Part shown: positions 829-38,672 of the stretch, piece after piece | Numbering within the stretch: the stretch's first letter is position 1 | Layout: every line of letters starts with the position of its first letter | NCBI GenBank assembly: GCA_002320595.1 | Contig: DCKB01000059.1 | Location: 687 to 64,686, forward strand | Source: Christensenella sp. UBA1685 | GTDB taxonomy: Bacteria > Bacillota > Clostridia > Christensenellales > CAG-138 | Direction of reading: 5' to 3' | DNA: 64,000 nucleotides | Program-made: the position numbers and the translations under genes | Notes under the pieces: model-generated | Seen by the model: only the letters and a program-made list of their open reading frames with translations | What the model was told of the DNA's origin: nothing | Databases searched by the model: none

Positions 829-875
829 ATGCGCTTTTGACAAAAAGGATGCAGGAAGAAACACATTTCAGATTC

Positions 876-1477: not shown

Positions 1478-1526
1478 GCTGCCGCAGGCAATGAAAAATA
1501 ATTCATCAATCGAACAGGAGAGAAAC

Positions 1527-22042: not shown

Positions 22043-22671
22043 AAGGATTGCTTCGCAAGGACGTTTATGTGCTTTTTCAGGCGAGTCGCGCGCAGCTTCT
22101 CATCGTGCTGCTGTTTCTCGTCATCTCCATGACAATGAACAACACGCTTATCGCCTATATGCTGGCACTTTACACAGCGATGATGCCGATTACCGTGATT
22201 GCGCTTGACGAGCGGAGCCGCTTTGACCGCTTTGCCCTCGCCCTGCCATGGTCGCGCGCGCAGATTGTGCTGAGCAAATATGCGCTGAGCCTTGCCGCGG
22301 CCTGCCTTGCCGCGCTTGCATACCTTGCCGGCGTGCTGACGCTCGGCTCCGCCATAAGCGGCGGAGTCAGCCTGCAGGATGCGCTTACGACATTCTGCGC
22401 AATGCTCACCGTCGGCACGCTCCTGCCTGCGCTGATGCTCCCCTTTGTGTTCCGCTTCGGCGTGGATAAGGGCCGGATGTGGATTATGCTCATCGCAATT
22501 GCTTTCGGCATTGGAGCAGGCCTTCTTTCCATGGATGAGGGCAGCGCGGTTTCCCAACTGGCGAACCGCCTGACGGCGCTTCCACTCTGGCTGCTGCCGC
22601 TTGCGGGGCTCACCGTTTTTGCGCTTTCCGCATTCGTTTCGGTGCAGATCTACCGCCGGCGGGAGCTGTAA
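22039..22671 (+). CDS. ABC-2 type transporter permease
   Basis: 210 aa with six hydrophobic segments. ATG overlaps the ATPase stop (ATGA). Confidence 0.72.
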   Translation: MKGLLRKDVYVLFQASRAQLLIVLLFLVISMTMNNTLIAYMLALYTAMMPITVIALDERSRFDRFALALPWSRAQIVLSKYALSLAAACLAALAYLAGVLTLGSAISGGVSLQDALTTFCAMLTVGTLLPALMLPFVFRFGVDKGRMWIMLIAIAFGIGAGLLSMDEGSAVSQLANRLTALPLWLLPLAGLTVFALSAFVSVQIYRRREL

Positions 22672-22695
22672 GCGGTTCGGCCGGCATCAAAACAC

Positions 22696-22730
22696 AAGGC
22701 CCGGCGCATAGGGCAGTGTTCGTAAAACAG
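22696..22730 (+). repeat. left arm of ~35-bp imperfect inverted repeat bounding the AT-rich cassette
   Basis: AAGGCCCGGCGCATAGGGCAGTGTTCGTAAAACAG matches the reverse complement of 24336-24370 (AAGGCCCGGCACATAGGGCGTGATTTGTAAAACAG). Confidence 0.75.
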
Positions 22731-22825
22731 TAATAAAAGTAGCGGAATTACTCATCGCAACAGCAAGTGAACAGGATGCGCCAACCGTTGACAGCCGCCG
22801 CCCGTCCTGCTTTTGTGGTAATCAA

Positions 22826-22856
22826 GGGAGCGACAGACTAAAGTGCTGTCGCTCCC
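22826..22856. repeat. 11-bp-stem hairpin
   Basis: GGGAGCGACAG-N9-CTGTCGCTCCC. Confidence 0.6.
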
Positions 22857-22896
22857 GCCCATTATGAGGAAAAACGGTTGAATTGTTCACATCCTT

Positions 22897-23193
22897 ATGC
22901 TATATTTTTTAATATATAGAGAACGGAAAATTAGAAGTTTTAGGAGAGAAAATGTGGTATTGTCTATCTTTTTAATAGGTTTTTTGTTAAGTGGAGCTTG
23001 CTATGGGGGCAATCTTTTTCTACAGAGTTTCTGCATTAAGAAAAAACTATACTGGCTACAGAGGATGAGTATGGTGATTATATCCATCATTCCAACTATA
23101 ATCAAATCATTGGTATTTGTTTTTCCTCTCACCCATTTCATTTTATTTCGATTTTTAATTGGAAATTGTGGTTATTTGCAATTGCAACCGTAA
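22897..23193 (+). CDS. hypothetical membrane protein fragment (possible 5' part of a frameshifted gene)
   Basis: AT-rich ORF with hydrophobic segments. An internal GTG after TAGGAGAG is an alternative start. Overlaps the next ORF in another frame. Confidence 0.3.
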   Translation: MLYFLIYRERKIRSFRRENVVLSIFLIGFLLSGACYGGNLFLQSFCIKKKLYWLQRMSMVIISIIPTIIKSLVFVFPLTHFILFRFLIGNCGYLQLQP

Positions 23194-23573
23194 TAGTAAC
23201 GAGCCTTATCATTATGTTGAAACATGAACCACATGAGGACGTACCTTTAGCACCTTTATGCATAGAAGCTGCATGTATGGAAATACCTCAAAGAGTGATG
23301 ATGCAGACCTTTGTTTGTGGTATTTTATCAATGCAGAAACTGAACACTTTATGGAGTATTTTTATAACGGCATTGATTTGGTGTGCGGGCATCCTGGTTC
23401 AAGCATTTGTTTCAAAACAAATGAATTTCAAACATTTATTTTTAGAAGTGGTTGCTTCCTTTGTTTTCTCAATGGGCATAGGATATGTATTTTATTCTTC
23501 AGAATGTTTAGTTATTCCGATGCTGGCACATGCTGCTGAAAGATTTGTTACGAGGAAGTGTCTGACAAAATAA
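23166..23573 (+). CDS. hypothetical multi-pass membrane protein (faint CPBP/Abi-like E-x3-R ... H-x3-E pattern)
   Basis: 135 aa with 3-4 hydrophobic helices. MEIPQR and HAAER could be degenerate CPBP motifs; I cannot verify this. Confidence 0.4.
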   Translation: MWLFAIATVIVTSLIIMLKHEPHEDVPLAPLCIEAACMEIPQRVMMQTFVCGILSMQKLNTLWSIFITALIWCAGILVQAFVSKQMNFKHLFLEVVASFVFSMGIGYVFYSSECLVIPMLAHAAERFVTRKCLTK

Positions 23574-23898
23574 CGAATTTGCAACATGTTCGTACACCGT
23601 GATGAGCAAGAAATTTTAATTTACCAAGAGACGATTTGAATAAGAGTAGGAACAAAAACAAGAAATTGCATAAATTCCAATCTGTAGAGCTACGTAAATT
23701 TTCAGTTTGTCGGAGCAACAAATTCCAAGTTGTCAAGTTAATGCCCTATTGAAAAAATGAATACCCCCCGCCCATCACAGCGGCATACAAGCAGTAAGTC
23801 TGAAAAGATTTTCTGCTTTTTTTGCGCTCATTTTTGGCAGACCGCACATTCCTGTTGTTTAGAAATTGATGGGGAAGTTTGCCCAAAGAGGGCTTGCG

Positions 23899-23973
23899 TA
23901 CCGTAGTAGTAATGAAAAGAACACCGCATATAATTAGAAGAACGGCATGGGGCTACCGTAGTAGTGATGAAAA
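23899..23973 (+). repeat. 20-bp direct repeat pair (TACCGTAGTAGTRATGAAAA)
   Basis: Copies at 23899-23918 and 23954-23973, 19 of 20 identical, each ending in ATGAAAA. Confidence 0.7.
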
Positions 23974-24335
23974 AAATCAAAAGAAGCGTTTGGCATTTTT
24001 CGGTTTCTTTCGTGGAGGGGGACAAACAGCGGGCAGAACACGCCGCCACTATCGCTATATTGATGAAACCAGCCATACCGTCCCCTTTGCGAATTGCAGT
24101 AAGGGCATAGAAAAAATCCGTTGGATTTTCCGCCTATTTGCCCCGCTGCGGTTTTGTAGGTATTGAGAGCAGCCTCACAGAGGAAAGCGGCAGTTTTTCA
24201 GAGCAAGATTCTACCACGGTGCCAAAATCCGCATATCTGCGGTTTTGCCCCTTTGGTAAATCTTGTTGGGGAGTGCCTTCCCCAAGCCCTGCCATATGAA
24301 AAGGCCGTGTATCGTTCCTGATACACGGCCTATAA

Positions 24336-24614: not shown

Positions 24615-27600
24615 TTACAGCTCCACAACGCCTTCAAACACGAGGTCTATCTCGCCGCGCATACGAAGCGAGCCGTCCGAGGAATAGCGCACGGAAAGCA
24701 CGCCGCCCGGCACTTTCACGGCGATGTCCGTATCTGTCGCGCAGAGGCCGTTTTCCACCGCTGCCGCCACGGCTGCGCACGCACCGGTGCCGCAGGCCCA
24801 GGTTTCGCCGCTGCCGCGCTCCCACACGCGCATGCGCAGAGTGGTTTCATCTAACACGCGCACAAACTCCGCGTTCACGCGCTCCGGGAAAATGGGCGCA
24901 TGCTCGAGCAGCGGTCCTTCCGAGGCCACATCCAGCGTATCCACATCTTCCACAAAAGCCACGGCATGCGGATTGCCGACATTTACGCACGTGATGCGGT
25001 ACCCCCGGCCTACATCCACCGCGTAATCCAGCACGCGGGGCACGGGCAGTTCCACGGGCACCGCTACGGATTCAAACCGCGCCCGGCCCATTGCTACCTC
25101 TGCCGCCCGCACAATGCCGTTGCGCTTGTATAGCCGCACCGCGCGCACGCCGCCCGCAGTTTCCACCGAAACCGAAAGGCGTTCCGGCGGGATGATGCCC
25201 CGGTCGTAGGCATACTTGGCAAGGCAGCCGATGGCGTTGCCGCCCATTGTGGCTACTGTGCCATCCAGGTTATATACGACCATGCGGAAATCCGCCCTGT
25301 CCGAAGGGTAAAGCAGGCACACGCCTTCCGCGCCGATGCCGAAGTGGCGTTCGCTCAGGCGCACGGCAAGGCCGGCGGGGTTGTCGATACGCTGCCGGCG
25401 GCAGTCGAAGCAAAGGTAATCGTTCCCGCTTGCCTGCATTTTGGAAAAACGGAGCCGTTCGCGGTGCCTGCGGCGGTGGTTTAAATCCACAAGCTCCGTG
25501 TTGAGCTGGCTGTAACGGCTTTCCATGCTATCCGCAAGGGCGTTCGCGGTATCGATGGAGGTGAGGCATGGGATGCTTTTTTCCACTGCCTTGCGGCGGA
25601 TGCGCACGCTGTCCCGCGTGGGGATGCGGCCCTTGGAGGAGGTGGAAACGACATAGGCGATCTTTCCTTCGTCCATCAGCCGGAGGATGGCATCATCCCC
25701 GGTGGAAAGTTTTTGCACTTCCGTAACCGGAAGGCCTGCGCTGCGGAGCGCCCGCGCGTTGCCGGGCGTTGCATACAGCGTGCAGCCAAGGTGCAAAAAC
25801 CGCTTTGCGGTGTCGTAAATTTCCCTGCGGTCCGTGCGTTTGACGCTGAACAGCACACCGCCGCGGCGATCCATTTGGTATCCTGCCGCCACAAGGCCCT
25901 TGTAGAGCGCCTCGGAGAGCGTGCCTGCAACGCCGAGCACCTCGCCGGTGGATTTCATCTCCGGCCCAAGGAGCGTATCCACATCCGCAAGCTTTTCAAA
26001 GGAAAACACCGGCACCTTCACCGCCACATAGGGCGGGATGGGGTAAAGCCCCGTGCCGAACCCCATCGCAGGCAGCGTTTCGCCAAGCATTGCGCGCGTT
26101 GCAAGCTCCACCATCGGCACGCCGGTGACCTTGCTGATATACGGGATCGTGCGCGAGGATCGGGGATTAACTTCAATGACATACAGCTCCCCGCCATAGA
26201 TCAGGTATTGGATGTTCACAAGCCCCTGCACCTTGAGCGAGAGCGCAAGGCGCGTGGAGCAATCCACAATGCGTTCCAGCATCTCATCGTCCACATTCCA
26301 GGCCGGATATACGGCGATGGAATCGCCTGAATGGATGCCCGCCCGCTCAATGTGCTCCATCACGCCCGGGATGAGGACATGCGTGCCGTCGGAAATCGCA
26401 TCCACTTCAAGCTCCGTGCCCATCAGGTACTGGTCGATGAGGATCGGGTTTTCAATGCCTTGGGCGAGGATGATCGCCATATATTCGCGCACATCTTCCG
26501 GCTGGAAGGCGATGATCATGTTCTGCCCGCCAAGCACATAGGACGGGCGCAGCAGCACCGGGTAGCCGAGCTCCGCCGCCGCAGCGAGCGCTTCATCCGT
26601 GGTCATGACGGTACGGCCGAGCGGGCGCTTGATGTCAAGCTCGGTCAAAAGCGCATCGAAGCGCTCCCGGTCCTCCGCCATGTCGATGCTGTCCGCCGGT
26701 GTGCCGAGGATGCGCACGCCCTGTTCGGAAAGGAAGTTCGTAAGCTTGATGGCCGTCTGCCCGCCGAAGGCCACGACTACGCCGTAAGGCTTTTCCGTGG
26801 CGATCACGCCCATCACATCCTCCGGCGTGAGCGGCTCGAAATACAGCCGGTCTGCGGTGTCGAAATCCGTGGAAACGGTTTCCGGGTTGTTGTTGACGAT
26901 CACGACCTCGTAGCCGCGCTTGCGGAGCGCCCACACGCAGTGGACGGAGGCGTAATCAAACTCGATGCCCTGGCCGATGCGGATCGGGCCGGAGCCGAAC
27001 ACGAGCACGGTCTTGCGTTGGCCGCGCCTGCGGGCGAGGAATTCCGCAGCCTCGTTTTCCTCCGCGTAGGCGGCGTAGAAATACGGCGTTTCCGCGCGGA
27101 ATTCCGCCGCACAGGTATCGACCATCTTGTAAACCGGCAGGAGCGGGGTTTTGATTTCCTGCCCGGAGATGCTTTGGATGACCTTGTCCGGGTAGCCCAT
27201 GCGCTTCGCTTCCCGGTACAGCGCATCGGTGAGCGGTTCGGCGAAAAGGCGCGCTTCCAGCCGCACGAGGTTTGTGAGCTTATAAAGGAACCATTCGTCG
27301 ATCTTCGTGACGGCGTGGATTTCGTCCGCGGAGATGCCGGCCTTGCATGCCGCAAACACGGTGAACAGGCGCCGGTCGTCGCAAACGCGGAGCTTTTCCA
27401 TGAGTTCAGCGCGGGAAAGGCCCTCAAGCGCCGGGGTATTGAGGCTCATGTGGCCGATTTCCGCACCGCGCACAGCCTTCATGAGCGCTTCTTCAAACGT
27501 TGCGCCGATGGCCATCACCTCGCCGGTGGCCTTCATCTGCGTGCCGAGCGTGCGCTTGGCGTAAACGAACTTGTCAAACGGCCATTTGGGGAGCTTGACC

Positions 27601-28664
27601 ACAACGTAATCGAGCGCCGGCTCGAAACAGGCGCAGGTCTTGCCGCCGGTCACAGCGTTCGGGATTTCCGGCAGCGTATAGCCGAGGGCGATTTTCGCCG
27701 CAACCTTGGCGATCGGGTAACCCGTGGCCTTGGAGGCGAGCGCGCTCGAACGGCTCACGCGGGGGTTGACCTCAATGACGGCATATTCAAAGCTTTCCGG
27801 GTTGAGCGCAAACTGGCAGTTGCAGCCGCCCTCGATGCCGAGCGAATCGATGATCCTGAGCGCGGCGGAGCGCAGCATTTGGTATTCCTTATCCGCGAGG
27901 GTGACGGCGGGTGCAATGACAATGGAATCGCCCGTGTGTACGCCCACGGGATCGAAGTTTTCCATGGAGCAGATGGTGATGCAGTTGCCCGCGGTGTCCC
28001 GCATGACCTCAAATTCGATCTCCTTCCAGCCCGCAATGCATTGCTCCACAAGGATCTGGTGAATTGGCGACATGCGAAGCCCGCGCTCCGCGATTTCCCT
28101 GAGCTCGGCCTCGTCCGCCGCGATGCCGCCGCCGCTTCCGCCCAGCGTGAACGCCGGGCGCACGATGAGCGGATAGCCGATCTCCGAAGCGAAGGCGAGT
28201 GCGCCTTCAAGGGATTCCGTTACCATAGAGGGGATGACGGGCTGGCCGATTGCCTCCATTGTGTCCTTGAAGCGCTGGCGGTCCTCCGCACGGTCGATGG
28301 TGTCCGGCTTCGCGCCGAGAAGCTTTACGCCGTGCTCCTCCAGAAACCCCTCTTTGGCGAGCTGCATGGCGAGCGTAAGCCCCGTCTGCCCGCCGAGCGT
28401 GGGCAGGATGCTGTCCGGCTGCTCTTTTTCGATGATGCGCCGCAGCGTGGGCAGCGTGAGCGGCTCAATGTAAACATGGTCCGCCATGTGGCCGTCCGTC
28501 ATGATGGTGGCGGGGTTGGAATTGACGAGGACGACCTCCACCCCTGCGTCTTTGAGCACTTCGCAGGCCTGCGTGCCGGCATAATCGAACTCCGCGGCCT
28601 GGCCGATGACGATGGGTCCCGAGCCGATGACAAGCGTGCGCCGGATGTCCTTATTGAGCGGCAT
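24615..28664 (-). CDS. carB: carbamoyl-phosphate synthase large subunit with in-frame C-terminal DapF-like domain
   Basis: 1349 aa in one uninterrupted frame. About 1070 aa of CarB (two ATP-grasp halves plus an MGS-like domain) followed by about 279 aa of diaminopimelate-epimerase-like sequence. Confidence 0.9.
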   Translation of the reverse strand: MPLNKDIRRTLVIGSGPIVIGQAAEFDYAGTQACEVLKDAGVEVVLVNSNPATIMTDGHMADHVYIEPLTLPTLRRIIEKEQPDSILPTLGGQTGLTLAMQLAKEGFLEEHGVKLLGAKPDTIDRAEDRQRFKDTMEAIGQPVIPSMVTESLEGALAFASEIGYPLIVRPAFTLGGSGGGIAADEAELREIAERGLRMSPIHQILVEQCIAGWKEIEFEVMRDTAGNCITICSMENFDPVGVHTGDSIVIAPAVTLADKEYQMLRSAALRIIDSLGIEGGCNCQFALNPESFEYAVIEVNPRVSRSSALASKATGYPIAKVAAKIALGYTLPEIPNAVTGGKTCACFEPALDYVVVKLPKWPFDKFVYAKRTLGTQMKATGEVMAIGATFEEALMKAVRGAEIGHMSLNTPALEGLSRAELMEKLRVCDDRRLFTVFAACKAGISADEIHAVTKIDEWFLYKLTNLVRLEARLFAEPLTDALYREAKRMGYPDKVIQSISGQEIKTPLLPVYKMVDTCAAEFRAETPYFYAAYAEENEAAEFLARRRGQRKTVLVFGSGPIRIGQGIEFDYASVHCVWALRKRGYEVVIVNNNPETVSTDFDTADRLYFEPLTPEDVMGVIATEKPYGVVVAFGGQTAIKLTNFLSEQGVRILGTPADSIDMAEDRERFDALLTELDIKRPLGRTVMTTDEALAAAAELGYPVLLRPSYVLGGQNMIIAFQPEDVREYMAIILAQGIENPILIDQYLMGTELEVDAISDGTHVLIPGVMEHIERAGIHSGDSIAVYPAWNVDDEMLERIVDCSTRLALSLKVQGLVNIQYLIYGGELYVIEVNPRSSRTIPYISKVTGVPMVELATRAMLGETLPAMGFGTGLYPIPPYVAVKVPVFSFEKLADVDTLLGPEMKSTGEVLGVAGTLSEALYKGLVAAGYQMDRRGGVLFSVKRTDRREIYDTAKRFLHLGCTLYATPGNARALRSAGLPVTEVQKLSTGDDAILRLMDEGKIAYVVSTSSKGRIPTRDSVRIRRKAVEKSIPCLTSIDTANALADSMESRYSQLNTELVDLNHRRRHRERLRFSKMQASGNDYLCFDCRRQRIDNPAGLAVRLSERHFGIGAEGVCLLYPSDRADFRMVVYNLDGTVATMGGNAIGCLAKYAYDRGIIPPERLSVSVETAGGVRAVRLYKRNGIVRAAEVAMGRARFESVAVPVELPVPRVLDYAVDVGRGYRITCVNVGNPHAVAFVEDVDTLDVASEGPLLEHAPIFPERVNAEFVRVLDETTLRMRVWERGSGETWACGTGACAAVAAAVENGLCATDTDIAVKVPGGVLSVRYSSDGSLRMRGEIDLVFEGVVEL
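24618..25454 (-). other. DapF-like (diaminopimelate epimerase fold) domain of the CarB fusion
   Basis: LRFSKMQASGNDY..., NLDGTVATMGGNAIGC (Gly where the first catalytic Cys is expected), VNVGNPHAV, ERGSGETWACGTGACA (second Cys present). Confidence 0.85.
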
Positions 28665-32103: not shown

Positions 32104-35100
32104 ATGAAATTACGCGTAAAAAAGCTTTTGTTCATATTGATTTTGGCCGTGGCGCTCATCGTGGCGCTCGTGATTTACTGCACGGGCGGCACAGGCGGCG
32201 GCAGCAATTCGCACACCGTTCAAAGCACGCTTGCCCTGAGCGAGGTCATGACGAGCAACAAGGGCTCCGTGCCGGATGAAAACGGTAACTACCCGGATTG
32301 GGTGGAGCTGAAGAACACCGGCAGCACCACCCTTGATGTGGGCGGCTTTGGCCTTACGGATGACCTTACTGCGGGAGTAAAGTATGTGTTCCCGAGCGGC
32401 ACCAAGGTTGAAGCGGGCGGTTACATCGTGGTCTGGTGCAGCGGGGAGAGCACGGGCGGCCTCGTCGCTCCGTTCAGGCTGTCCGCTTCCGACAGCCTGG
32501 TGCTTCTCGATGTAACGGGCAACACGCTGGACACGCTTGTCCTGCGCGCGGTCGCCTCCGGCAACACGCTTGCAAAGGATGCTTCCGGCGCCTGGACTGA
32601 AATGAAACCGTCTCCGGGATATGACAACACCGAAGCGGGCGCGGCCGCGTTCGAGGCCTCCCTTCAGGGCGATGAGGATCTTGGCGTCACCATCAATGAA
32701 TTCATGGCCGCGAACGCCACCACGCTCGCGGATGCATACGGCGTGTATTCGGACTGGATTGAGCTTTACAACAGCAACGATGCCGAGGTTGACCTTTCCG
32801 GCTGCGGCCTTTCGGATACGCTTTCGCAGCCGAAAAAATACACGTTCCCGGAAGGCACGGTCATCCCGGCAAAGGGGTATCTTGTCATCTTCTGCTCCGG
32901 AAACGAGGGCTTCACGGAATCGGGCGAGCTGCACGCGCCGTTCGGCCTCAGGGCCTATCAGGAGGACGTGGTGCTTTCCGGCAAGCGCGGCACCATTTTG
33001 GACAGCTTCTCCTATTCCGCGCAGGAAACGGACTGTTCCATGGCGCGCATGCCGGACGGCACGGGGGAATTCGCGCAAACCTCCCACCCCACACCCGGCT
33101 ATGCCAACGATGACGCGGGATATCAGGCCTTCGCAGCAAGCGTGGCCCGCCTGAAAAGCGATGTTTACATCTCCGAGGCGCTCGGCAAGAACATCAGCGC
33201 CAAGGCCGCGCCGGACGGAGAATATTACGACTGCATAGAGCTGAGCAACCGGGGGACGGAAACCGTCTCCCTTTCTGGCTGCGCGCTTTCCGACAATCCC
33301 AAGAACCCGGCAAAGTGGGTTTTCCCGGAAGGCACGGAGCTTGCGCCCGGGGAGTATCTTGTGGTGTATGCCTCCGGCGGAAATAAGAAGGATGCCAGGA
33401 ACGACCTGCACACGAACTTCAACTTAAGCGCCGCGGGCGCTTCCATTTATTTGTTCGGTGCGGACGGGCTTTTGATGGACAAATTGCAAACCGGCGCTTT
33501 TTTGAACGACATGAGCTATGGCCTGGATGCGGACGGGAGGTATGCATGCTTTGAAACGGCGACGCTTGGCGCGGCGAATGGCGCCGGGCGGAAGGGCGTG
33601 ACGGGCATGGTACAGTTTTTGACCACGCCGGGCATTTACGACGGCGAGATCGAGATCGCGCTTTCCGCACCTCAGGGCGAAACCATCCACTACACGCTCG
33701 ATTGTACGACCCCCACGCCAAACTCCCCGGTATATGACGGCCCCATCAAGGTTGCGAAGAATACCGTAGTGCGCGCGGTTTCTATGCGCGAAGGATATGT
33801 GACCAACTACACCGTATCCGGCACGTTCCTTTTTAAAAGCGACGATGTAAACCACAGCCTGCCCGTTGTGACGCTTGTGACGGACCCGGACAACCTCTGG
33901 AGCAACGAGAAGGGCATATACGCGTTCGGCGAAAATTACGACCCAACGCTTGCCTATGGCGATGCGATTACTACGGCAAACTTCTGGAAATCCAAAACCG
34001 CGCCCGATGAATGGGAGCGGCCGGGCTGCCTCGGCGTGTTTGACGAAAGCGGGCGCGAGGTTTTTTCCCAAAACATCGGCATGCGCATTGCGGGCAGCTT
34101 TGGGCGCGGGCGCGCGCAGAAGGGCTTCAACCTCATTGCGCGGGACGCTTATGGCGACAACCGCATGGCATACCCTTTTTTTGAGGATTTGGACTACACG
34201 GAATATAAATCGATCGTCCTGCGCGCGGGGGCGCAGGATCAGAACAGCGGCAAGTTCCGCGATGAGCTGGCGGCGGGCCTGCTCGTGGGCAGCGACGTAA
34301 ACTTTCTCTATCAGGCATATAAGCCCTATGTGCTTTACCTCAACGGCGAATACTGGGGCGTGTATTTCATGAAGGAAAAACGCAACCGCTTCTTCGTTGC
34401 GCAGCACGAAGGCACGGACGACACCGTGAACATGGACATCATCCGTTCGGCGGGCAAAGGTTCTGTTTACTATGGCTCCAACGCGGAGTGGCAGGAGTTT
34501 ATGACATGGCTCAACGGCACGGGAAACGACCTTTCTTCCGCCTCGAATTATGCCTACGCAGAGGAGCGCGTGGATCTCGACAGCTTCATGGATTACATGA
34601 TCTGCGAGATCTACTCCGCCAATTCCGATGTTTGGAACATCCAGTATTACAAGATCAAGGGCGGCAAGTGGAAATGGATTTACTATGATTTTTGCTGGAG
34701 CTTCGGCGCAAGCGAGAACCGCACCAATCATCAAACCCTTTCCATCCGCAGGCTGTCCAGCAAGCCCTGCTCCGACCTGTTCAACGCACTTTTGAAGAAC
34801 AGCGACTGGCGCGACCGCTTCTGCCGCCGCTTCGCGGAGCTGCTCAACACGATTTATGCCCCGGAGACCGTGCTTGCAAAAATCGATGAACTGTACGCCC
34901 AGGTGGAGCCGGAAGTGGCGCGCGAACGGGAAAAGTTCAACGGCGAAACATGGCTTGGCGTCAAGCAGCACAACGAAGTGCGCGGCACCTATGAAGGCTT
35001 CATAAAGCAGGTGCAAATCATGCGCGAATTTGCATCCGGCCGCCCGGAGTCGCTCAAACAGCAGATTCAAAAGGAATTCGGCCTTTCCGATTCGTATATG

Positions 35101-35118
35101 CAGGAGGTGTTCGGATGA
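32104..35118 (+). CDS. membrane-anchored CotH kinase family protein with three lamin-tail-like repeats
   Basis: Start at MKLRVKKLLFILILAVAL (TM anchor). Three internal repeats (…PDWVELKN…, …SDWIELYN…, …YDCIELSN…), a chitobiase-C-like module, then a CotH-like C-terminal half. Confidence 0.85.
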   Translation: MKLRVKKLLFILILAVALIVALVIYCTGGTGGGSNSHTVQSTLALSEVMTSNKGSVPDENGNYPDWVELKNTGSTTLDVGGFGLTDDLTAGVKYVFPSGTKVEAGGYIVVWCSGESTGGLVAPFRLSASDSLVLLDVTGNTLDTLVLRAVASGNTLAKDASGAWTEMKPSPGYDNTEAGAAAFEASLQGDEDLGVTINEFMAANATTLADAYGVYSDWIELYNSNDAEVDLSGCGLSDTLSQPKKYTFPEGTVIPAKGYLVIFCSGNEGFTESGELHAPFGLRAYQEDVVLSGKRGTILDSFSYSAQETDCSMARMPDGTGEFAQTSHPTPGYANDDAGYQAFAASVARLKSDVYISEALGKNISAKAAPDGEYYDCIELSNRGTETVSLSGCALSDNPKNPAKWVFPEGTELAPGEYLVVYASGGNKKDARNDLHTNFNLSAAGASIYLFGADGLLMDKLQTGAFLNDMSYGLDADGRYACFETATLGAANGAGRKGVTGMVQFLTTPGIYDGEIEIALSAPQGETIHYTLDCTTPTPNSPVYDGPIKVAKNTVVRAVSMREGYVTNYTVSGTFLFKSDDVNHSLPVVTLVTDPDNLWSNEKGIYAFGENYDPTLAYGDAITTANFWKSKTAPDEWERPGCLGVFDESGREVFSQNIGMRIAGSFGRGRAQKGFNLIARDAYGDNRMAYPFFEDLDYTEYKSIVLRAGAQDQNSGKFRDELAAGLLVGSDVNFLYQAYKPYVLYLNGEYWGVYFMKEKRNRFFVAQHEGTDDTVNMDIIRSAGKGSVYYGSNAEWQEFMTWLNGTGNDLSSASNYAYAEERVDLDSFMDYMICEIYSANSDVWNIQYYKIKGGKWKWIYYDFCWSFGASENRTNHQTLSIRRLSSKPCSDLFNALLKNSDWRDRFCRRFAELLNTIYAPETVLAKIDELYAQVEPEVAREREKFNGETWLGVKQHNEVRGTYEGFIKQVQIMREFASGRPESLKQQIQKEFGLSDSYMQEVFG

Positions 35119-35810
35119 GCAAGATCCCACAGTACAGGCACGAGCTGAAATATTACATCAATCAGGGCGCATACACGTTCCTTTCCAAGAAGCTTTCGCT
35201 CACCATGGAGCAGGACAAGTATGCCCGAAAAAACGGCGGGGAATATTTGATCCGCAGCCTGTATCTTGACGACATGGACGATTCCGCTTTCCGCGAAAAG
35301 CTGGATGGCATCGACAACCGGGACAAGTTCCGCATCCGCATTTACAATATGTCGGATGCGGCGATCAAGCTTGAATGCAAGCACAAGGAGGGCGGCTACA
35401 TCAAGAAAACCTCCCTTGCGCTTTCCCGGGAGGAATACGAGCGGCTCAGAAAAGGGGATTATACCTTCCTGCTGCACCGGCCGGAGCCGTTTGCGCGGCG
35501 CATGTTTGCGGAGTTTGCAACAAAGCCGCTGAGGCCCTGCGTGATTGTGGATTATATGCGTGAGGCGTATACCTTCCCCGTGCAGGATGTGCGCGTGACG
35601 TTTGACAAGGATGTGCGCACCGGCTACCGCAGCACGGACCTGTTCAACGCGCACATCCCCACATACCGCGTGATCGACGATTACGACATGGTGCTAGAGG
35701 TGAAGTTCAACCAGCACCTGCCCACATACATCCGCTCGCTTTTACAGCTTGACGCACATGTGCGCAGCGCGGTCAGCAAGTACTGTTTGTGCAGGAAATT
35801 TGAATTGTAA
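35115..35810 (+). CDS. VTC-domain (polyphosphate-polymerase-like, triphosphate-tunnel fold) protein
   Basis: 231 aa. N-terminal YRHELKYYI, IRSLYLDD and FRIRIYN are typical of bacterial VTC-domain proteins. ATG overlaps the CotH stop (ATGA). Confidence 0.82.
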   Translation: MSKIPQYRHELKYYINQGAYTFLSKKLSLTMEQDKYARKNGGEYLIRSLYLDDMDDSAFREKLDGIDNRDKFRIRIYNMSDAAIKLECKHKEGGYIKKTSLALSREEYERLRKGDYTFLLHRPEPFARRMFAEFATKPLRPCVIVDYMREAYTFPVQDVRVTFDKDVRTGYRSTDLFNAHIPTYRVIDDYDMVLEVKFNQHLPTYIRSLLQLDAHVRSAVSKYCLCRKFEL

Positions 35811-35829
35811 GGCAATTCGGGTCCAATTG

Positions 35830-35861
35830 ATAATTGACAATGCACGATTGTCAATTATACT
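35830..35861 (+). promoter_or_regulatory. promoter embedded in a 12-bp-arm perfect palindrome
   Basis: ATAATTGACAAT-GCACG-ATTGTCAATTAT (35830-35858). TTGACA (35834-35839), 16 nt, TATACT (35856-35861). Confidence 0.5.
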
Positions 35862-35971
35862 GAAAAGCAGGCTGCTGCATAAAATGGCAGATTGAATTCA
35901 GCGAACCAAAGGCAGCAATGCAGAGCGGGCATTGCCCATTGTAATTTATAAATTGACACGGAGGTTTTCCC

Positions 35972-36628
35972 ATGAACGATTTTACCCTTTCAGACATTTT
36001 CTCCATCACGCTCAACCCGCTGCAGGTGATCACGTCGCTCCTCATCGCGCTTCTGGTCGGCCTTTTCATCTTTTTCATTTATAAGAAGACGTTCGGCGGT
36101 GTGATGTATTCACGCAACTTCAACCTGAGCCTCATCATGCTTACGATGGTCACCTCGCTCATGCTCATGCTCATCAGCAACAGCCTTGCGGTTTCCATGG
36201 GCATGGTCGGCGCGCTTTCCATCATCCGCTTCCGCACGGCAGTGAAGGACCCGATCGACACCGTGTTCATGTTCTGGGCCGTGGGCGAGGGCATTGCCGT
36301 AGGCACGAAGTATTATGACATCGCCGTAATCGCAGCGCTTACCATCGGCGTGATCATGGTGGTGCTGACGGTGTTCAAGGGCAAGGCCAGCATGCCGTAC
36401 CTACTCATCCTCCATTATCACGAGGGTGCGGGCCAGCAGGTGCGCCAAATGGTGAAACAGCTGCCGAACGCGCGCATGAAATCCAAGACGGCACAGCGTG
36501 ACGGCATCGAGCTTACGATGGAACTGCGCCTCCGGGAAAACGAGACGGGCTTTGTGGAAAAGTTCCTGCGTGTGGACGGCGTGTATGATGCAACGCTCAT
36601 CTCCCATCAGGGGGATATCATATCCTAA
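35972..36628 (+). CDS. DUF4956-type membrane protein
   Basis: 218 aa. N-terminal TM helices and the GALSIIRFRTAVKDPIDTVFMFWAVGEGIAVG block characteristic of DUF4956. Confidence 0.8.
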   Translation: MNDFTLSDIFSITLNPLQVITSLLIALLVGLFIFFIYKKTFGGVMYSRNFNLSLIMLTMVTSLMLMLISNSLAVSMGMVGALSIIRFRTAVKDPIDTVFMFWAVGEGIAVGTKYYDIAVIAALTIGVIMVVLTVFKGKASMPYLLILHYHEGAGQQVRQMVKQLPNARMKSKTAQRDGIELTMELRLRENETGFVEKFLRVDGVYDATLISHQGDIIS

Positions 36629-36701: not shown

Positions 36702-38435
36702 ATGCACCTTGTAAAGCGCTTCGTTTCTTACTATAAGCCGCACCGGAAGCTGTTTGCCATCGACATGGCCTGCGCGTTCATCGTTGCGGTGTGCGACCTG
36801 TTTTACCCGATCATCGCGGGAAACATCATCGACGATTATGTGCCAAACCAGGACCTCAGGCTGCTTCTGATCTGGTCCGGCGTGCTGCTCGGCATTTACC
36901 TTGTAAAGGCTGTGCTCAACTACGTCATCCAGTATTGGGGGCACATTGTGGGCGTGCGCATTCAGGGCGACATGCGGCGGGACATGTTCCGCCATATGCA
37001 GAAGCTGCCCTTTGCCTTCTTCGATGAAAACAAAACCGGCACGCTCCTTTCCCGCATGGTCAACGATCTGCAGGATGTTTCCGAGCTTGCGCACCACGGG
37101 CCGGAGGATCTGTTCCTTTCGCTCATCATGCTGGTGGGCTCCTTCATCATCCTCGCGGGTACGGACCTGCTGCTGACGGTTATCATCTTCGCGTTTTTGC
37201 CGGTGATGGTGTTCGTTGCATCCAAACTGCGCAAGGGGATGCAGGAAGCCTTCCGCGCCACGCGCGTGGAGGTGGGAGAAGTAAACGCCAACGTGGAAAC
37301 GGCCATTGCCGGCATGCGCGTTTCGCGCTCTTACACCGCCGCATCCCACGAAAACAGGAAGTTTGATACCGCGAATGAGCGCTTCAAGCTGGCGCGCGGC
37401 CGTGCTTACCGGGAAATGGGCAAGTTCCATTCCAGCATGACGCTCTTCAACGACCTGCTGTACCTGATCGTGCTTGTTGCGGGCGGCCTGTTCTTCTTTT
37501 ATGGGCGCATCAGCATCGGCGATTTTACCAAGTATATCCTGTTTATCACCATGTTTTTAAAGCCCATCAACCGGCTGGTGAACATATTTGAACAGCTTCA
37601 AAACGGCATGACGGGCTTCCAGCGCTTTGTGGAGATCATGGATCAGAAGGACGAAACGGATACCGGCACCATCGAGGCGGATGCGCTTCGCGGCAACATC
37701 GTGTTTGATCACGTCAGTTTCCGCTATGAAAACAGCGATGCCAGAGATGTGGAAAGCAAGGTCATCCATGACCTTTCCATGCGCATTGAGCCGGGGAAAA
37801 CGGTTGCGCTCGTCGGCCCTTCGGGCGGAGGAAAGACGACCATCTGCAACCTGATCCCGCGCTTTTATGAAGCGGATGAAGGCACGATTTCCATTGACGG
37901 TGTGGATATACGCGACCTGACGCGCGAATCGCTCCGCCGCAACATTGGCATCGTTGCACAGGACGTGTTTCTCTTCAACGGCAGCATCCGGGAGAACATC
38001 GCTTACGGTAACCTGGACGCAACGGATGAGGAGATCGTTGAGGCCGCCAAGAAGGCGCATATCCACGATTATATCATGACGCTTGATCACGGCTATGACA
38101 CCGGCGTCGGCGAACGCGGCGTGAAGCTTTCCGGCGGGCAGAAGCAGCGCATCTCCATCGCGCGCGTGTTTCTGAAGAACCCCTCCATCCTGATTCTGGA
38201 TGAAGCGACAAGCGCCCTTGACAATGCCACGGAGATGCTCATCCAGCAGGCGCTGAACGACCTTTCGCATGGCCGCACCTGCATCGTGGTGGCGCACCGG
38301 CTTTCCACCATCAAGAATGCGGATGAGATCATCGTCCTCACCAAGGATGGCATCACGGAGCGCGGCACGCACGAGGAGCTGATCGCCGCAGGCGGCATGT
38401 ACGCAAAGCTTTACCAGTACCAGTTCCGGGAATAA
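36702..38435 (+). CDS. ABC transporter permease/ATP-binding fusion (type I exporter)
   Basis: 577 aa. Six-TM N-terminal half; Walker A GPSGGGKTT, LSGGQKQRISIAR, ILILDEATSALD. Confidence 0.92.
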   Translation: MHLVKRFVSYYKPHRKLFAIDMACAFIVAVCDLFYPIIAGNIIDDYVPNQDLRLLLIWSGVLLGIYLVKAVLNYVIQYWGHIVGVRIQGDMRRDMFRHMQKLPFAFFDENKTGTLLSRMVNDLQDVSELAHHGPEDLFLSLIMLVGSFIILAGTDLLLTVIIFAFLPVMVFVASKLRKGMQEAFRATRVEVGEVNANVETAIAGMRVSRSYTAASHENRKFDTANERFKLARGRAYREMGKFHSSMTLFNDLLYLIVLVAGGLFFFYGRISIGDFTKYILFITMFLKPINRLVNIFEQLQNGMTGFQRFVEIMDQKDETDTGTIEADALRGNIVFDHVSFRYENSDARDVESKVIHDLSMRIEPGKTVALVGPSGGGKTTICNLIPRFYEADEGTISIDGVDIRDLTRESLRRNIGIVAQDVFLFNGSIRENIAYGNLDATDEEIVEAAKKAHIHDYIMTLDHGYDTGVGERGVKLSGGQKQRISIARVFLKNPSILILDEATSALDNATEMLIQQALNDLSHGRTCIVVAHRLSTIKNADEIIVLTKDGITERGTHEELIAAGGMYAKLYQYQFRE

Positions 38436-38449
38436 GGACGCAATCCTTC

Positions 38450-38474
38450 GGGCGGCAATATGCCGCCCTTTTTT
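38450..38474 (+). terminator. intrinsic terminator after the ABC exporter
   Basis: GGGCGGCA-ATA-TGCCGCCC followed by TTTTTT. Confidence 0.85.
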
Positions 38475-38565: not shown

Positions 38566-38672
38566 ATACGGCAATCCCCCGTCAGCGGCTCGCGCCGCTG
38601 CCACCCCCTTTCAGAAAGGGGGCTTTTGGCAAGCTGCAACCAAAAGGCTCCTTTTTGAAGGGAGCTGTCGAC
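38566..38672 (+). repeat. repeat family R2, copy a (~105 bp, multi-hairpin)
   Basis: ATACGGCAATCCCCCGTCAGCGGCT...GGGAGCTGTCGAC aligns end to end with the reverse complement of 50461-50566. Confidence 0.85.

What the first reader, a model, noticed from the sequence alone, without database searches (positions are those of the whole stretch)
32104..36628. CotH kinase / VTC-type polyphosphate-polymerase-like / DUF4956 membrane-protein triad
Seen: three same-strand genes lie together. (i) A 1004-aa protein with an N-terminal TM anchor (LLFILILAVALIVALVIYC). It carries three tandem lamin-tail-like repeats (LSEVMTSN..PDWVELKNTG..LDVGGFGLTD..KYVFPSGT..GGYIVVWCSG; INEFMAAN..SDWIELYNSN..VDLSGCGLSD..KYTFPEGT..KGYLVIFCSG; ISEALGKN..YDCIELSNRG..VSLSGCALSD..KWVFPEGT..GEYLVVYASG), an Ig-like module, and a CotH-like C-terminal half. 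(ii) A 231-aa VTC-domain protein (YRHELKYYI start, resembling the ExExK signature of triphosphate-tunnel enzymes) whose ATG overlaps the CotH stop (ATGA at 35115-35118). (iii) A DUF4956-type polytopic membrane protein. Established: CotH is an atypical protein-kinase fold. The VTC catalytic domain makes polyphosphate in eukaryotes, where a membrane subunit couples synthesis to translocation. Inference: DUF4956 may be the membrane partner of the VTC-like enzyme. Together they could form a bacterial synthesis/export module for polyP or another triphosphate-derived product, working with a surface-displayed kinase. I know of no experimental description of this gene triad.
Basis: partly seen in the sequence, partly recalled or inferred. 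Interest (0 to 1): 0.72.

Follow-up and report, generated by a model that had tools for sequence, protein, structure and literature searches.

The report
CotH–VTC–DUF4956 envelope module, pel-independent form
Three adjacent genes in a common human-gut Clostridia bacterium encode a surface-anchored CotH kinase, a cytoplasmic enzyme resembling the yeast polyphosphate polymerase, and a membrane protein; this trio is already published as an add-on to Pel biofilm operons, but here it stands alone and nobody has tested its biochemistry.

Summary
Window 32104-36628 encodes three proteins. The first is a 1004-aa protein with a membrane anchor, three LTD repeats, a CHB_HEX_C/Fn3 module and a CotH domain. 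The second is a 231-aa VTC-domain protein whose ATG overlaps the cotH stop. The third is a 218-aa DUF4956 membrane protein.

The claim that the triad is undescribed is wrong. It is published as the cotH / polyphosphate-polymerase / DUF4956 accessory group of Gram-positive pel operons, and S. intermedius deletion mutants have phenotypes.

I anchored a census on VTC in 80 species genomes. DUF4956 is adjacent in 78 of 78 informative loci, and CotH in 71 of 79. About 48 loci, including this one, have the LTD-bearing CotH and no pel genes. That contradicts the published statement that the triad occurs only at pel loci.

The Vtc4 catalytic residues are conserved, and the model's best fold match is Vtc4. 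The CotH catalytic Asn/Asp residues are conserved. DUF4956 resembles MgtC (a transmembrane domain plus an ACT-like domain), not the yeast VTC channel.

The topology is conserved: kinase outside, polymerase inside, membrane protein between. Coupled polyphosphate synthesis and export that feeds a surface kinase is plausible but untested.

The parts
32104..35118 (+). Gene for the 1004-aa surface-anchored multidomain CotH-family kinase (the 'CotH_L' form).
   Evidence: ORF and translation. Pfam LTD x3, CHB_HEX_C_1/Fn3_assoc and CotH. Same 1004-aa gene call on six metagenome contigs.
32119..32181 (+). N-terminal signal anchor (aa 6-26, KKLLFILILAVALIVALVIYC). Basic residues precede it, so the protein is predicted N-in with the rest outside.
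   Evidence: Sequence. 43 of 44 complete CotH_L homologues have a strongly hydrophobic N-terminal 15-mer.
32236..33492 (+). Three tandem lamin-tail-domain (LTD) repeats. Units start at aa 45, 197 and 356; the third is aa 351-463.
   Evidence: Pfam PF00932, 3 stretches, E=7e-48. Motif positions.
33625..33828 (+). CHB_HEX_C_1 / Fn3-associated beta-sandwich module (aa 508-575).
   Evidence: Pfam E=2.5e-14 and 5.2e-12. phmmer hit to beta-hexosaminidase 6q63, residues 547-603.
34084..35055 (+). CotH kinase domain (aa 661-984). N840 and D842 form an NxD motif. D862 aligns with the catalytic and metal-binding Asp residues of Bacillus CotH.
   Evidence: Pfam PF08757, E=5e-37. Profile hit to B. cereus CotH 5jd9, E=1.3e-28. 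N/D/D invariant in 13 homologues. B. subtilis D228 and D251 are the inactivating mutations: PMC7821199.
35115..35810 (+). Gene for a 231-aa soluble VTC/TTM-type enzyme resembling Vtc4 polyphosphate polymerase. Its start overlaps the cotH stop (ATGA).
   Evidence: Pfam PF09359, E=4e-38. Profile hit to Vtc4 3g3q, E=6.8e-12. K12, R73, R75, K89, Y147, R149 and E195 align with Vtc4 K200, R264, R266, K281, Y359, R361 and E426. Invariant S221-K222. AF2 model pLDDT 80.6; best Foldseek match 3g3r/3g3q, E about 1e-11, TMq 0.65. No hydrophobic segment.
35830..35861 (+). Near-consensus sigma-70-like promoter (TTGACA-16-TATACT). A perfect 12-bp inverted repeat overlaps it (ATAATTGACAAT gcacg ATTGTCAATTAT, 35830-35858). 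This may be an internal, repressor-controlled promoter for DUF4956 and the ABC gene. It is specific to this species.
   Evidence: Promoter scan, 11 of 12 matches. Sequence. Not conserved in relatives L007, L014, L015, L011 or L010.
35972..36628 (+). Gene for the 218-aa DUF4956 membrane protein. It has five predicted TM helices and a cytoplasmic beta-alpha-beta-beta-alpha-beta (ACT-like) C-terminal domain, an MgtC-like architecture.
   Evidence: Pfam PF16316, 34.4 bits. Weak MgtC PF02308 hits in four divergent members, E 0.003-0.018. AF2 secondary structure, low confidence (pLDDT 57). Foldseek best matches are ACT domains 2ko1/3ibw and MgtC C-terminal domains 2lqj/7qa5. Adjacent to VTC in 78 of 78 informative loci.
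36702..38435 (+). MsbA-like homodimer-type ABC exporter, 74 bp downstream. Probably co-transcribed, but linked to the triad only in the closest relatives, so a doubtful member.
   Evidence: Pfam ABC_membrane + ABC_tran. NCBIfam hits all below cut-off. Present directly after DUF4956 only in L007, L008, L009, L014, L015 and L018.
38450..38468 (+). Intrinsic-terminator-like hairpin with a T-run that closes the transcription unit.
   Evidence: Terminator scan, 8-bp stem with 7 GC pairs and a TTTTTT tail.

Best explanation
This is a pel-independent member of a widespread three-gene cell-envelope module of Gram-positive bacteria. Its function is not known from experiment.

Shown here:
1. A soluble, cytoplasmic triphosphate-tunnel enzyme. 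Its closest solved relative by sequence profile and by fold is the yeast polyphosphate polymerase Vtc4, and it keeps the Vtc4 catalytic residues that could be aligned.
2. An always-adjacent polytopic membrane protein (DUF4956) with an MgtC-like transmembrane domain and a cytoplasmic ACT-like domain.
3. A membrane-anchored, extracytoplasmic CotH-family kinase with intact catalytic Asn/Asp residues. Here it is extended by three LTD repeats and a beta-sandwich module.

Inferred mechanism: the VTC-like enzyme uses cytoplasmic ATP to make polyphosphate, or a related phosphoanhydride product, at the membrane. DUF4956 docks it and passes the product, or a signal about it, across or into the membrane. 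The surface CotH kinase then phosphorylates cell-surface proteins or glycopolymers in a compartment that lacks ATP, possibly using the exported polyphosphate as donor.

In Pel-producing species the target would be the Pel matrix or its machinery. In this organism the target is unknown.

My confidence that this is a member of the CotH/VTC/DUF4956 module is about 0.9. My confidence in the export-and-surface-phosphorylation mechanism is about 0.3.
For: - Family assignments.
- Census of 80 species-representative genomes anchored on VTC. DUF4956 is adjacent in 78 of 78 informative loci, and CotH in 71 of 79.
- Three gene orders and contexts were found. CotH_L>VTC>DUF4956 occurs in about 48 loci. 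pelDEA(DA)FG>CotH_S>VTC>DUF4956(>DUF4832) occurs in 14. VTC>DUF4956>CotH_S occurs in 10, seven of them with a divergent purple acid phosphatase.
- 22 of 58 CotH-to-VTC junctions are 4-nt overlaps.
- Vtc4 residues K200, R264, R266, K281, Y359, R361, E426, S457 and K458 are the critical ones (bioRxiv 10.1101/2023.01.27.525886). The window's K12, R73, R75, K89, Y147, R149 and E195 align to the first seven. An invariant S221-K222 matches the FSKF motif.
- The VTC model's best PDB matches are Vtc4 3g3r/3g3q, ranking above the other TTM enzymes.
- CotH catalytic residues are conserved.
- The topology split is conserved. N-terminal hydrophobic segments occur in 43 of 44 CotH_L and 19 of 25 CotH_S, in 0 of 77 VTC, and in 77 of 78 DUF4956.
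- Recurrent neighbours are secreted enzymes acting on phosphoesters or on envelope glycans: purple acid phosphatase, NAGPA phosphodiester glycosidase, DUF4832 glycosidase, and GT2-GtrA with an Und-P translocase-like gene.
- Genetics in S. intermedius: deleting the DUF4956 or the CotH gene changes Pel levels and aggregation (PMC12345266).
Against: - No biochemical evidence exists for polyphosphate synthesis by any bacterial VTC-domain protein. The searches found none.
- DUF4956 shows no similarity to the yeast VTC channel subunits. Its only detectable relatives are MgtC-like, and MgtC is known as a regulatory protein rather than a transporter (as summarised in PMC12345266).
- The DUF4956 model is of low confidence (pLDDT 57), so a channel can be neither seen nor excluded.
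- The S. intermedius VTC deletion had no reported aggregation or Pel phenotype, while its two neighbours did. That is awkward for a strictly linear pathway.
- No kinase of the CotH fold is known to use polyphosphate as donor (my own knowledge).
- The mapping of S221-K222 to Vtc4 S457-K458 is ambiguous. A local alignment places K222 on K455 instead.
- In this species a 161-bp gap with its own promoter-like site separates VTC from DUF4956.
Confidence: 0.4

Rival explanations
1. Cytoplasmic polyphosphate system with an MgtC-like regulator. The VTC-like enzyme makes polyphosphate that stays inside the cell. DUF4956 is a membrane anchor or allosteric regulator, with its ACT domain sensing a metabolite, rather than a conduit. 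CotH acts independently outside the cell with another phosphoryl donor. The genes are co-regulated only because all three serve phosphate or envelope homeostasis.
For: - DUF4956 has an MgtC-like transmembrane domain and an ACT/MgtC-like C-terminal fold.
- The authors of PMC12345266 suggested the polyphosphate may remain cytoplasmic.
- VTC>DUF4956 pairs occur without CotH in L045, L051, L053, L069, L076 and L077.
- Many VTC homologues carry long, basic, disordered cytoplasmic N-terminal extensions.
Against: - It does not explain why an extracytoplasmic kinase is adjacent in 71 of 79 loci, often with overlapping stop and start codons, across three gene orders.
- It does not explain why the recurrent neighbours are secreted phosphoesterases and glycan enzymes.
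Confidence: 0.3
2. Pel (or other exopolysaccharide) accessory module acting in trans. As in streptococci, the triad modulates production or retention of a Pel-like polymer, and the biosynthetic genes lie elsewhere in this genome.
For: - The published association with pelDEA(DA)FG.
- 14 of 80 loci here are pel-linked.
- C. perfringens NELoc-2 places VTC and CotH near a chitin-synthase-like glycosyltransferase.
Against: - Profiles for PelA(DA), PelD, PelE, PelF, PelG and DUF4832 find nothing in the whole 64-kb window.
- About 48 species with the LTD-CotH form have no pel gene within 10 kb.
- The CotH architecture differs: about 1000 aa with LTDs, against about 620 aa in pel loci.
Confidence: 0.12
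3. The VTC-like protein is a tunnel metalloenzyme with a different activity, such as a tripolyphosphatase, an NTP phosphohydrolase, or a cyclase or other nucleotide-derived signal maker. Its product is sensed by the ACT domain of DUF4956.
For: - The TTM superfamily is catalytically diverse. Foldseek also hits YgiF, CYTH 'adenylate cyclases', AtTTM3 and thiamine triphosphatase (ranks 14-33).
- The ExK motif is shared across the superfamily.
Against: - The top 13 structural matches are all VTC subunits, with E-values 3 to 6 orders of magnitude better than the other TTMs.
- The Pfam hit is VTC-specific.
- A Lys matching the position that separates active Vtc4 from inactive Vtc2/3 is invariant.
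Confidence: 0.13
4. Chance or purely syntenic adjacency, with no functional link between the three genes.
For: None beyond the 161-bp gap and the possible internal promoter in this species.
Against: The adjacency persists in 80 species across Clostridia, Bacilli and Coriobacteriia, with rearranged gene order and unrelated flanks.
Confidence: 0.02

Closest known systems
cotH / poly-phosphate polymerase / DUF4956 (+DUF4832) accessory gene group of Gram-positive pel operons (Whitfield et al. 2020, bioRxiv 10.1101/768473; S. intermedius SIR_1594/1593/1592, mBio 2025, PMC12345266)
   Same: The same three protein families, contiguous, on the same strand and in the same order (CotH > VTC > DUF4956). 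CotH is predicted secreted, the VTC-like protein cytoplasmic, and DUF4956 a membrane protein with an ACT-like tail.
   Different: There are no pel genes or DUF4832 in the 64-kb window. CotH here is about 1000 aa with three LTDs and a CHB_HEX_C module instead of about 570-620 aa with an Fn3 domain. The flanks are housekeeping genes. The published statement that the triad is absent outside pel loci does not hold in the 80-genome sample.
Yeast VTC complex (Vtc4/Vtc3 or Vtc2/Vtc1), which couples polyphosphate synthesis to membrane translocation
   Same: The catalytic tunnel domain is homologous. Profile E=6.8e-12 and Foldseek E about 1e-11 with TMq 0.65. The critical basic, Tyr and Glu residues are conserved. 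A dedicated membrane protein is encoded next to it.
   Different: The bacterial enzyme is a stand-alone 231-aa domain with no SPX domain and no fused transmembrane domain. The neighbouring membrane protein has five helices plus an ACT-like domain and is MgtC-like. The VTC channel instead uses subunits of three helices each. Activity and translocation are untested.
Bacillus spore-coat kinase CotH (B. cereus 5JD9; B. subtilis CotH)
   Same: Homologous atypical kinase domain (profile E=1.3e-28). The NxD and D catalytic residues are conserved.
   Different: Bacillus CotH is a roughly 360-aa protein that acts in the mother cell on the coat proteins CotB and CotG. This protein is membrane-anchored and extracytoplasmic, carries LTD and beta-sandwich modules, and sits in a non-sporulation operon.
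C. thermocellum cellulosomal protein Cthe_0239 (LTD, LTD, Fn3, CotH)
   Same: The same extracellular LTD-Fn3-CotH domain architecture (PMC6083626).
   Different: The cellulosomal protein was cloned as a cellulosome component, with no link to VTC/DUF4956 reported in that paper. Here the protein has an N-terminal membrane anchor and is translationally coupled to VTC.
MgtC family (Salmonella and Mycobacterium virulence factor)
   Same: Polytopic N-terminal domain plus a cytoplasmic ACT-like C-terminal domain. PF02308 hits are weak but reproducible. The MgtC C-terminal structures 2lqj and 7qa5 are among the best fold matches.
   Different: All matches fall below family thresholds (16-18 bits against a gathering cut-off of 31.4; Foldseek E about 7e-3 on a low-confidence model). 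MgtC is not encoded next to VTC or CotH.
C. perfringens NELoc-2 (VTC - 'tubulin/FtsZ' membrane protein - resolvase - VTC - 'tubulin/FtsZ' - CotH - ... - chitin-synthase-like GT)
   Same: VTC-domain genes, each followed by a 222-226-aa cytoplasmic-membrane protein, with a CotH gene beside them (PMC2879425).
   Different: The membrane proteins were annotated as tubulin/FtsZ. That they are DUF4956 is my inference from size, position and predicted location; I did not check it by sequence. The pair is duplicated, and the locus is a strain-specific pathogenicity island.

Membership tests
VTC domain / Vtc4-type polyphosphate polymerase (TTM superfamily) | Sequence match to the VTC family model above its curated threshold | tested here: met
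   PF09359, 131.7 bits against a cut-off of 23, covering 2-231 of 235 profile positions.
VTC domain / Vtc4-type polyphosphate polymerase (TTM superfamily) | Closed beta-barrel tunnel fold, closest to Vtc4 | tested here: met
   AF2 model with pLDDT 80.6. The top 13 Foldseek PDB matches are VTC subunits; 3g3r/3g3q give E about 1e-11 and TMq 0.65.
VTC domain / Vtc4-type polyphosphate polymerase (TTM superfamily) | Triphosphate-binding and Mn-binding residues K200, R264, R266, K281, Y359, R361 and E426 | tested here: met
   They align with window K12, R73, R75, K89, Y147, R149 and E195. All are invariant in 58 homologues. Residue list.
VTC domain / Vtc4-type polyphosphate polymerase (TTM superfamily) | S457/K458, where K458 distinguishes active Vtc4 from inactive Vtc2/3 | tested here: inconclusive
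   An invariant S221-K222-Y223 motif matches Vtc4 F-S457-K458-F. However, the profile alignment stops before it, and a local pairwise alignment puts K222 on K455.
VTC domain / Vtc4-type polyphosphate polymerase (TTM superfamily) | Polyphosphate synthesis from ATP | not testable with these tools
   Needs an enzyme assay. The literature searches found no bacterial VTC protein that has been assayed.
Yeast-type VTC complex (synthesis coupled to translocation) | Membrane channel built from VTC-type 3-helix TM domains (Vtc1-like), with an SPX regulatory domain | tested here: not met
   No TM or SPX region in the 231-aa protein. The neighbouring DUF4956 has five predicted helices and no match to the VTC TM chains. 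The caveat is that the DUF4956 TM model is of low confidence.
CotH kinase family | Match to the CotH family model and to the solved CotH structure sequence | tested here: met
   PF08757, 128.5 bits against a cut-off of 23.8, covering 2-322 of 322 positions. Profile against 5jd9, E=1.3e-28.
CotH kinase family | Catalytic Asp and metal-binding Asp (B. subtilis D228 and D251) | tested here: met
   Window N840/D842 and D862 align with B. cereus N222/D224 and D247. They are invariant in 13 diverse homologues. Mutant data.
CotH kinase family | Protein kinase activity | not testable with these tools
   Needs an assay of the ectodomain with ATP and with polyphosphate.
DUF4956 (PF16316) | Match above the Pfam gathering score | tested here: met
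   34.4 bits against 30.6, which is marginal. 120 listed homologues at 72-100% identity all carry PF16316.
MgtC family (PF02308) | Match above the gathering score | tested here: not met
   15.8-18.3 bits against 31.4 in four divergent DUF4956 proteins. This is a resemblance only.
MgtC family (PF02308) | ACT-like C-terminal cytoplasmic domain | tested here: inconclusive
   A predicted beta-alpha-beta-beta-alpha-beta domain at aa 143-210, pLDDT about 70-80. Foldseek hits 2ko1, 3ibw, 2lqj and 7qa5 at E 7e-3 to 4e-2; none reaches 1e-3.
Gram-positive pel-operon accessory group (cotH/PPP/DUF4956) | The three families contiguous on one strand | tested here: met
Gram-positive pel-operon accessory group (cotH/PPP/DUF4956) | Location immediately downstream of pelDEA(DA)FG | tested here: not met
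   HMMs built from 10-14 PelA(DA), PelD, PelE, PelF, PelG and DUF4832 sequences find nothing in the 64-kb window. The flanks are carAB, an alpha/beta hydrolase and an ABC exporter.

The most novel reading that the evidence does not exclude
Bacteria have a third, VTC-type route to polyphosphate besides PPK1 and PPK2. It is organised as a trans-membrane machine. A cytoplasmic Vtc4-like polymerase is docked on an oligomeric DUF4956 conduit and extrudes polyphosphate to the cell surface. There a membrane-anchored CotH kinase uses it as phosphoryl donor to phosphorylate wall proteins or glycopolymers. This would solve the problem of how an extracellular kinase is powered without ATP. In abundant gut Clostridia it would also be a source of surface or luminal polyphosphate.
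Probability: 0.2. Interest if true: 0.85.

Novelty: new variant of a known kind. Interest (0 to 1): 0.5.

Why it matters
Bacterial polyphosphate synthesis is currently attributed to PPK1 and PPK2. A Vtc4-like polymerase with intact catalytic residues, locked to a dedicated membrane protein and to an extracytoplasmic kinase, is a concrete and testable candidate for a new route.

It also bears on a question nobody has answered: what powers secreted CotH-type kinases outside the cell?

The census changes how the published streptococcal data should be read. The triad is not a Pel-specific accessory. It is an autonomous module that has been recruited to pel loci in a minority of lineages.

The organism is very common in human gut metagenomes; its VTC protein is indexed in 499 blocks of the collection. 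Any surface or exported polyphosphate could therefore matter for host interaction.

The finding itself is a re-discovery of a described gene group. Its value lies in the pel-independent context and in the conserved inside/membrane/outside topology.

Tried and rejected
- Single-sequence phmmer of the VTC protein against PDB found nothing. The same search with the CotH protein hit only the CHB_HEX_C module. Profiles were needed.
- A profile of the VTC C-terminal 49 residues against PDB gave only a spurious myoglobin hit. I therefore confirmed the Vtc4 421-467 sequence with a direct query. The S457/K458 mapping stayed ambiguous.
- The search for related loci with the 58-sequence alignment failed because no stretch was conserved enough. 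A 14-sequence alignment worked.
- NCBIfam has no model for any of the three proteins. The ABC exporter is generic and MsbA-like, below every cut-off.
- Rfam found no riboswitch or leader in 29.5-39.5 kb, only sub-threshold noise.
- The AF2 model of DUF4956 was poor (pLDDT 57), so a channel-like TM fold could not be assessed. I used only the C-terminal domain matches.
- I first suspected that the long VTC homologues (365-620 aa) were CotH-VTC or DUF4956-VTC fusions. They are not: their N-termini are disordered, basic, low-complexity and free of Pfam domains.
- I considered the ABC exporter as a fourth component. I rejected it as a general member because it follows DUF4956 only in the closest relatives.
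- I considered the promoter and palindrome in the VTC-DUF4956 gap as a conserved regulatory element. It is not conserved in related species.

Full report
**1. Observation**

The three ORFs are real and lie on the + strand:
- 32104-35118, 1004 aa
- 35115-35810, 231 aa
- 35972-36628, 218 aa

Third-position GC is 0.73-0.79, as in the other genes of the window. Identical gene calls appear on six independent human-gut metagenome contigs.

Pfam assigns the following:
- Protein 1: LTD in 3 stretches (E=7e-48), CHB_HEX_C_1/Fn3_assoc at aa 508-575, and CotH at aa 661-984 (E=5e-37).
- Protein 2: VTC (E=4e-38).
- Protein 3: DUF4956 (34.4 bits against a cut-off of 30.6).

The ATGA stop/start overlap at 35115-35118 is present. 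NCBIfam has no model for any of the three proteins.

The flanks are housekeeping genes. Upstream on the opposite strand lie carB (here read through into dapF), carA and an alpha/beta hydrolase. Downstream lies an MsbA-like ABC exporter.

**2. The triad is already in the literature**

Whitfield et al. (bioRxiv 10.1101/768473, also PMC7112168) describe a contiguous accessory group next to pelDEA(DA)FG. It consists of cotH, a poly-phosphate polymerase, DUF4956 and DUF4832, and occurs in streptococci, clostridia and bifidobacteria.

The S. intermedius study (PMC12345266) describes three proteins:
- SIR_1594, a secreted CotH with an Fn3 domain.
- SIR_1593, a cytoplasmic Vtc4-like polymerase.
- SIR_1592, with four TM segments plus an ACT domain, described as MgtC-like.

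Deleting SIR_1592 or SIR_1594 changed Pel levels and lowered aggregation. Deleting SIR_1593 had no reported effect. The authors state that they could not find the triad outside pel loci.

C. perfringens NELoc-2 carries VTC genes, each followed by a 222-226-aa membrane protein annotated 'tubulin/FtsZ', next to a CotH gene (PMC2879425).

The LTD-LTD-Fn3-CotH architecture is listed for C. thermocellum Cthe_0239 (PMC6083626).

I found no biochemical study of a bacterial VTC-domain protein or of DUF4956.

**3. Comparative census**

A VTC alignment scan of one genome per GTDB species returned 80 loci with up to 10 kb of flank on each side. At least 582 loci matched in total. I detected CotH, LTD, DUF4956 and ABC homologues with iterative HMM searches on all ORFs. 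I then clustered the neighbouring genes and annotated the clusters with Pfam.

DUF4956 is adjacent to VTC in 78 loci. The other two loci end at the contig edge. CotH is adjacent in 71 of 79 informative loci.

Three architectures occur:
- **(A)** CotH_L (about 1000 aa, LTDs plus CotH) > VTC > DUF4956. About 48 species, mostly Christensenellales- and Oscillospiraceae-type MAGs. The flanks are unrelated from locus to locus (gyrA/CCA-adding enzyme, the dcw cluster, an AI-2E transporter and others), and there are no pel genes. The window belongs here.
- **(B)** pelD-E-A(DA)-F-G > CotH_S (about 620 aa) > VTC > DUF4956 (> DUF4832). 14 species: Lachnospiraceae, Coriobacteriia, Gemmiger, Robertmurraya and Peribacillus.
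- **(C)** VTC > DUF4956 > CotH_S. 10 species: Paenibacillus, Cohnella, Neobacillus and Desulfosporosinus. Seven have a secreted purple acid phosphatase divergently upstream.

Exceptions:
- VTC > DUF4956 pairs without CotH occur in L045, L051, L053, L069 and L076.
- L077 has pel genes followed by VTC > DUF4956, also without CotH.
- In L048 and L055 an LTD-only protein takes the CotH position.

HMMs for the pel genes, DUF4832, PAP and NAGPA find nothing in the 64-kb window.

The VTC-DUF4956 pair is therefore the invariant core, and CotH is a near-constant third partner. The pel association is a minority arrangement in this sample, contrary to the published statement.

One caveat applies. The sample is the 80 closest VTC relatives (43-86% identity), so it does not cover Bacteroidota or distant VTC proteins.

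**4. The VTC-like enzyme**

A 58-sequence profile hits the Vtc4 catalytic domain (3g3q, E=6.8e-12).

The cryo-EM study of the yeast complex names the residues critical for synthesis: K200, R264, R266, K281, Y359, R361, S457, K458 and the Mn ligand E426. K458 is replaced by Ile or Leu in the inactive Vtc2 and Vtc3.

In the profile alignment the first six of these and E426 correspond to window K12, R73, R75, K89, Y147, R149 and E195. All are invariant among the 58 homologues.

An invariant S221-K222-Y223 motif resembles Vtc4 F-S457-K458-F. I confirmed the Vtc4 sequence. The register is ambiguous, because a local alignment puts K222 on K455.

The AF2 model (pLDDT 80.6) matches Vtc4 best (3g3r/3g3q, E about 1e-11, TMq 0.65). 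Other tunnel enzymes rank lower: YgiF, CYTH cyclase-like proteins, AtTTM3 and thiamine triphosphatase.

The protein has no hydrophobic segment, and none of 77 homologues has one either. It is therefore cytoplasmic.

**5. The CotH protein**

A 13-sequence profile of the C-terminal domain hits B. cereus CotH (5jd9, E=1.3e-28). Window N840/D842 and D862 align with B. cereus N222/D224 and D247. These sit 23 residues apart, like B. subtilis D228 and D251, whose mutation inactivates the kinase (PMC7821199). The three residues are invariant in both the long and the short CotH classes.

The N-terminus (K2, R4, K6, K7, then 19 hydrophobic residues) predicts an N-in signal anchor. It is not a lipobox, because Tyr occupies position -1.

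Strongly hydrophobic N-terminal segments occur in 43 of 44 CotH_L proteins and 19 of 25 CotH_S proteins. The other six CotH_S proteins fall just under the threshold. An extracytoplasmic location is thus a conserved property.

**6. DUF4956**

Hydropathy and the AF2 secondary structure give five helices (16-40, 48-69, 72-88, 94-109, 115-135) and a C-terminal beta-alpha-beta-beta-alpha-beta domain (143-210). By the positive-inside rule, the K38-K39-R48 and R86-R88-K92 loops and the C-terminal domain face the cytoplasm. This orientation is an inference.

Four divergent members give weak but reproducible MgtC (PF02308) hits, E 0.003-0.018.

The model is poor overall (pLDDT 57). Its C-terminal domain (pLDDT about 70-80) matches ACT domains (2ko1, 3ibw) and the MgtC C-terminal domains (2lqj, 7qa5) at E 7e-3 to 4e-2. 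There is no match to the VTC channel chains, but the TM part of the model is too uncertain to draw a conclusion.

DUF4956 is unusually conserved, with 72-100% identity across the 120 listed clusters.

**7. Local transcription signals**

In this species a 161-bp gap separates VTC from DUF4956. The typical gap in the census is about 10-60 bp.

The gap holds a near-consensus promoter (TTGACA-16-TATACT, 35834-35861). A perfect 12-bp inverted repeat overlaps it (35830-35858). This element is not conserved in related species.

No + strand terminator separates DUF4956 from the ABC gene, and a strong terminator follows at 38450-38468. The ABC exporter follows DUF4956 only in the closest relatives: L007, L008, L009, L014, L015 and L018. 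I treat it as a lineage-specific neighbour.

**8. Mechanism**

Shown:
- The three genes form a conserved unit.
- The polymerase-like enzyme is cytoplasmic and has a Vtc4-like active site.
- The kinase is extracytoplasmic and has an intact active site.
- An MgtC-like membrane protein with a cytoplasmic ligand-binding-type domain always accompanies the polymerase.
- Recurrent extra neighbours are secreted enzymes of phosphoester or envelope-glycan chemistry. These are purple acid phosphatase, NAGPA phosphodiester glycosidase (some copies with a dockerin), DUF4832 glycosidase, and GT2-GtrA with an Und-P translocase-like gene.

Inferred:
- The polymerase works at the membrane on DUF4956.
- Its product, or a signal about it, reaches the outside.
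- There it serves CotH-dependent phosphorylation of surface polymers.

The main weaknesses are these:
- There is no biochemistry for any part of the module.
- DUF4956 resembles a regulator (MgtC) rather than the VTC channel.
- The S. intermedius VTC deletion was silent.
- CotH-fold kinases are not known to use polyphosphate.

The chief rival keeps polyphosphate in the cytoplasm and makes DUF4956 a regulator.

**9. Verdict**

The family assignments and the functional linkage are supported. The claim of novelty for the triad is not supported.

What is new relative to the papers I could search is twofold:
- The pel-independent, LTD-bearing form is the commonest arrangement among the nearest 80 species.
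- The inside/membrane/outside topology is conserved across all three arrangements.

I rate it a new variant of a known but functionally uncharacterised gene module, of moderate interest.

Noticed in passing
window 24615-28664 (- strand): carB is read as one 1349-aa ORF carrying the CPSase large-chain domains plus a C-terminal DAP-epimerase (dapF) domain. The same fused call appears on five of six related contigs. On L004 the two are separate genes of 1076 aa and 249 aa. This could be a real fusion or a strain-level stop-codon difference.
   Followed up: partly
window 35830-35861: A perfect 12-bp inverted repeat (ATAATTGACAAT-gcacg-ATTGTCAATTAT) overlaps both hexamers of a near-consensus promoter in the VTC/DUF4956 gap. 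It looks like an operator. It is not conserved in related species.
   Followed up: partly
P0242, P0244, P0247, P0258; also the VTC ORFs of L043, L046 and L047: Many of the closest VTC homologues (365-620 aa) carry long N-terminal extensions that are disordered, rich in Lys, Arg, Pro and Glu, and have no Pfam match. The window protein lacks this extension. Its role is unknown; it might bind polyanions or act as a tether.
   Followed up: partly
L048, L055 (upstream of VTC); L043 and L079 (extra copies): Secreted proteins made only of LTD repeats, with no CotH domain, occupy the CotH position or sit beside the triad. This suggests that the LTD part has a role of its own in the module.
   Followed up: no
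L047, L075, L084 (downstream of DUF4956); L032, L035, L041 (upstream); L068: An NAGPA-type phosphodiester glycosidase recurs near the triad, some copies with a dockerin. In three loci it lies between a GT2-GtrA fusion and an undecaprenyl-phosphate translocase-like gene. Seven Paenibacillus-type loci have a secreted purple acid phosphatase divergently upstream of VTC.
   Followed up: partly
L063 4953-9971; L078 6358-9985: Two tandem CotH genes precede VTC in these pel-linked loci. In L063 one of them is a long form of about 1086 aa.
   Followed up: no
window 1-2000 and 22001-24000: Two segments of clearly lower GC (0.47 and 0.45, against about 0.58 elsewhere). Their ORFs lack the GC3 bias of the other genes (for example 23214-23573). 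They may be foreign or non-coding DNA.
   Followed up: no
window 38599-38667: A roughly 65-nt hairpin scores on both strands against a microRNA model, far below that model's gathering score. It lies about 130 nt after the ABC terminator and is probably just a palindromic intergenic element.
   Followed up: no
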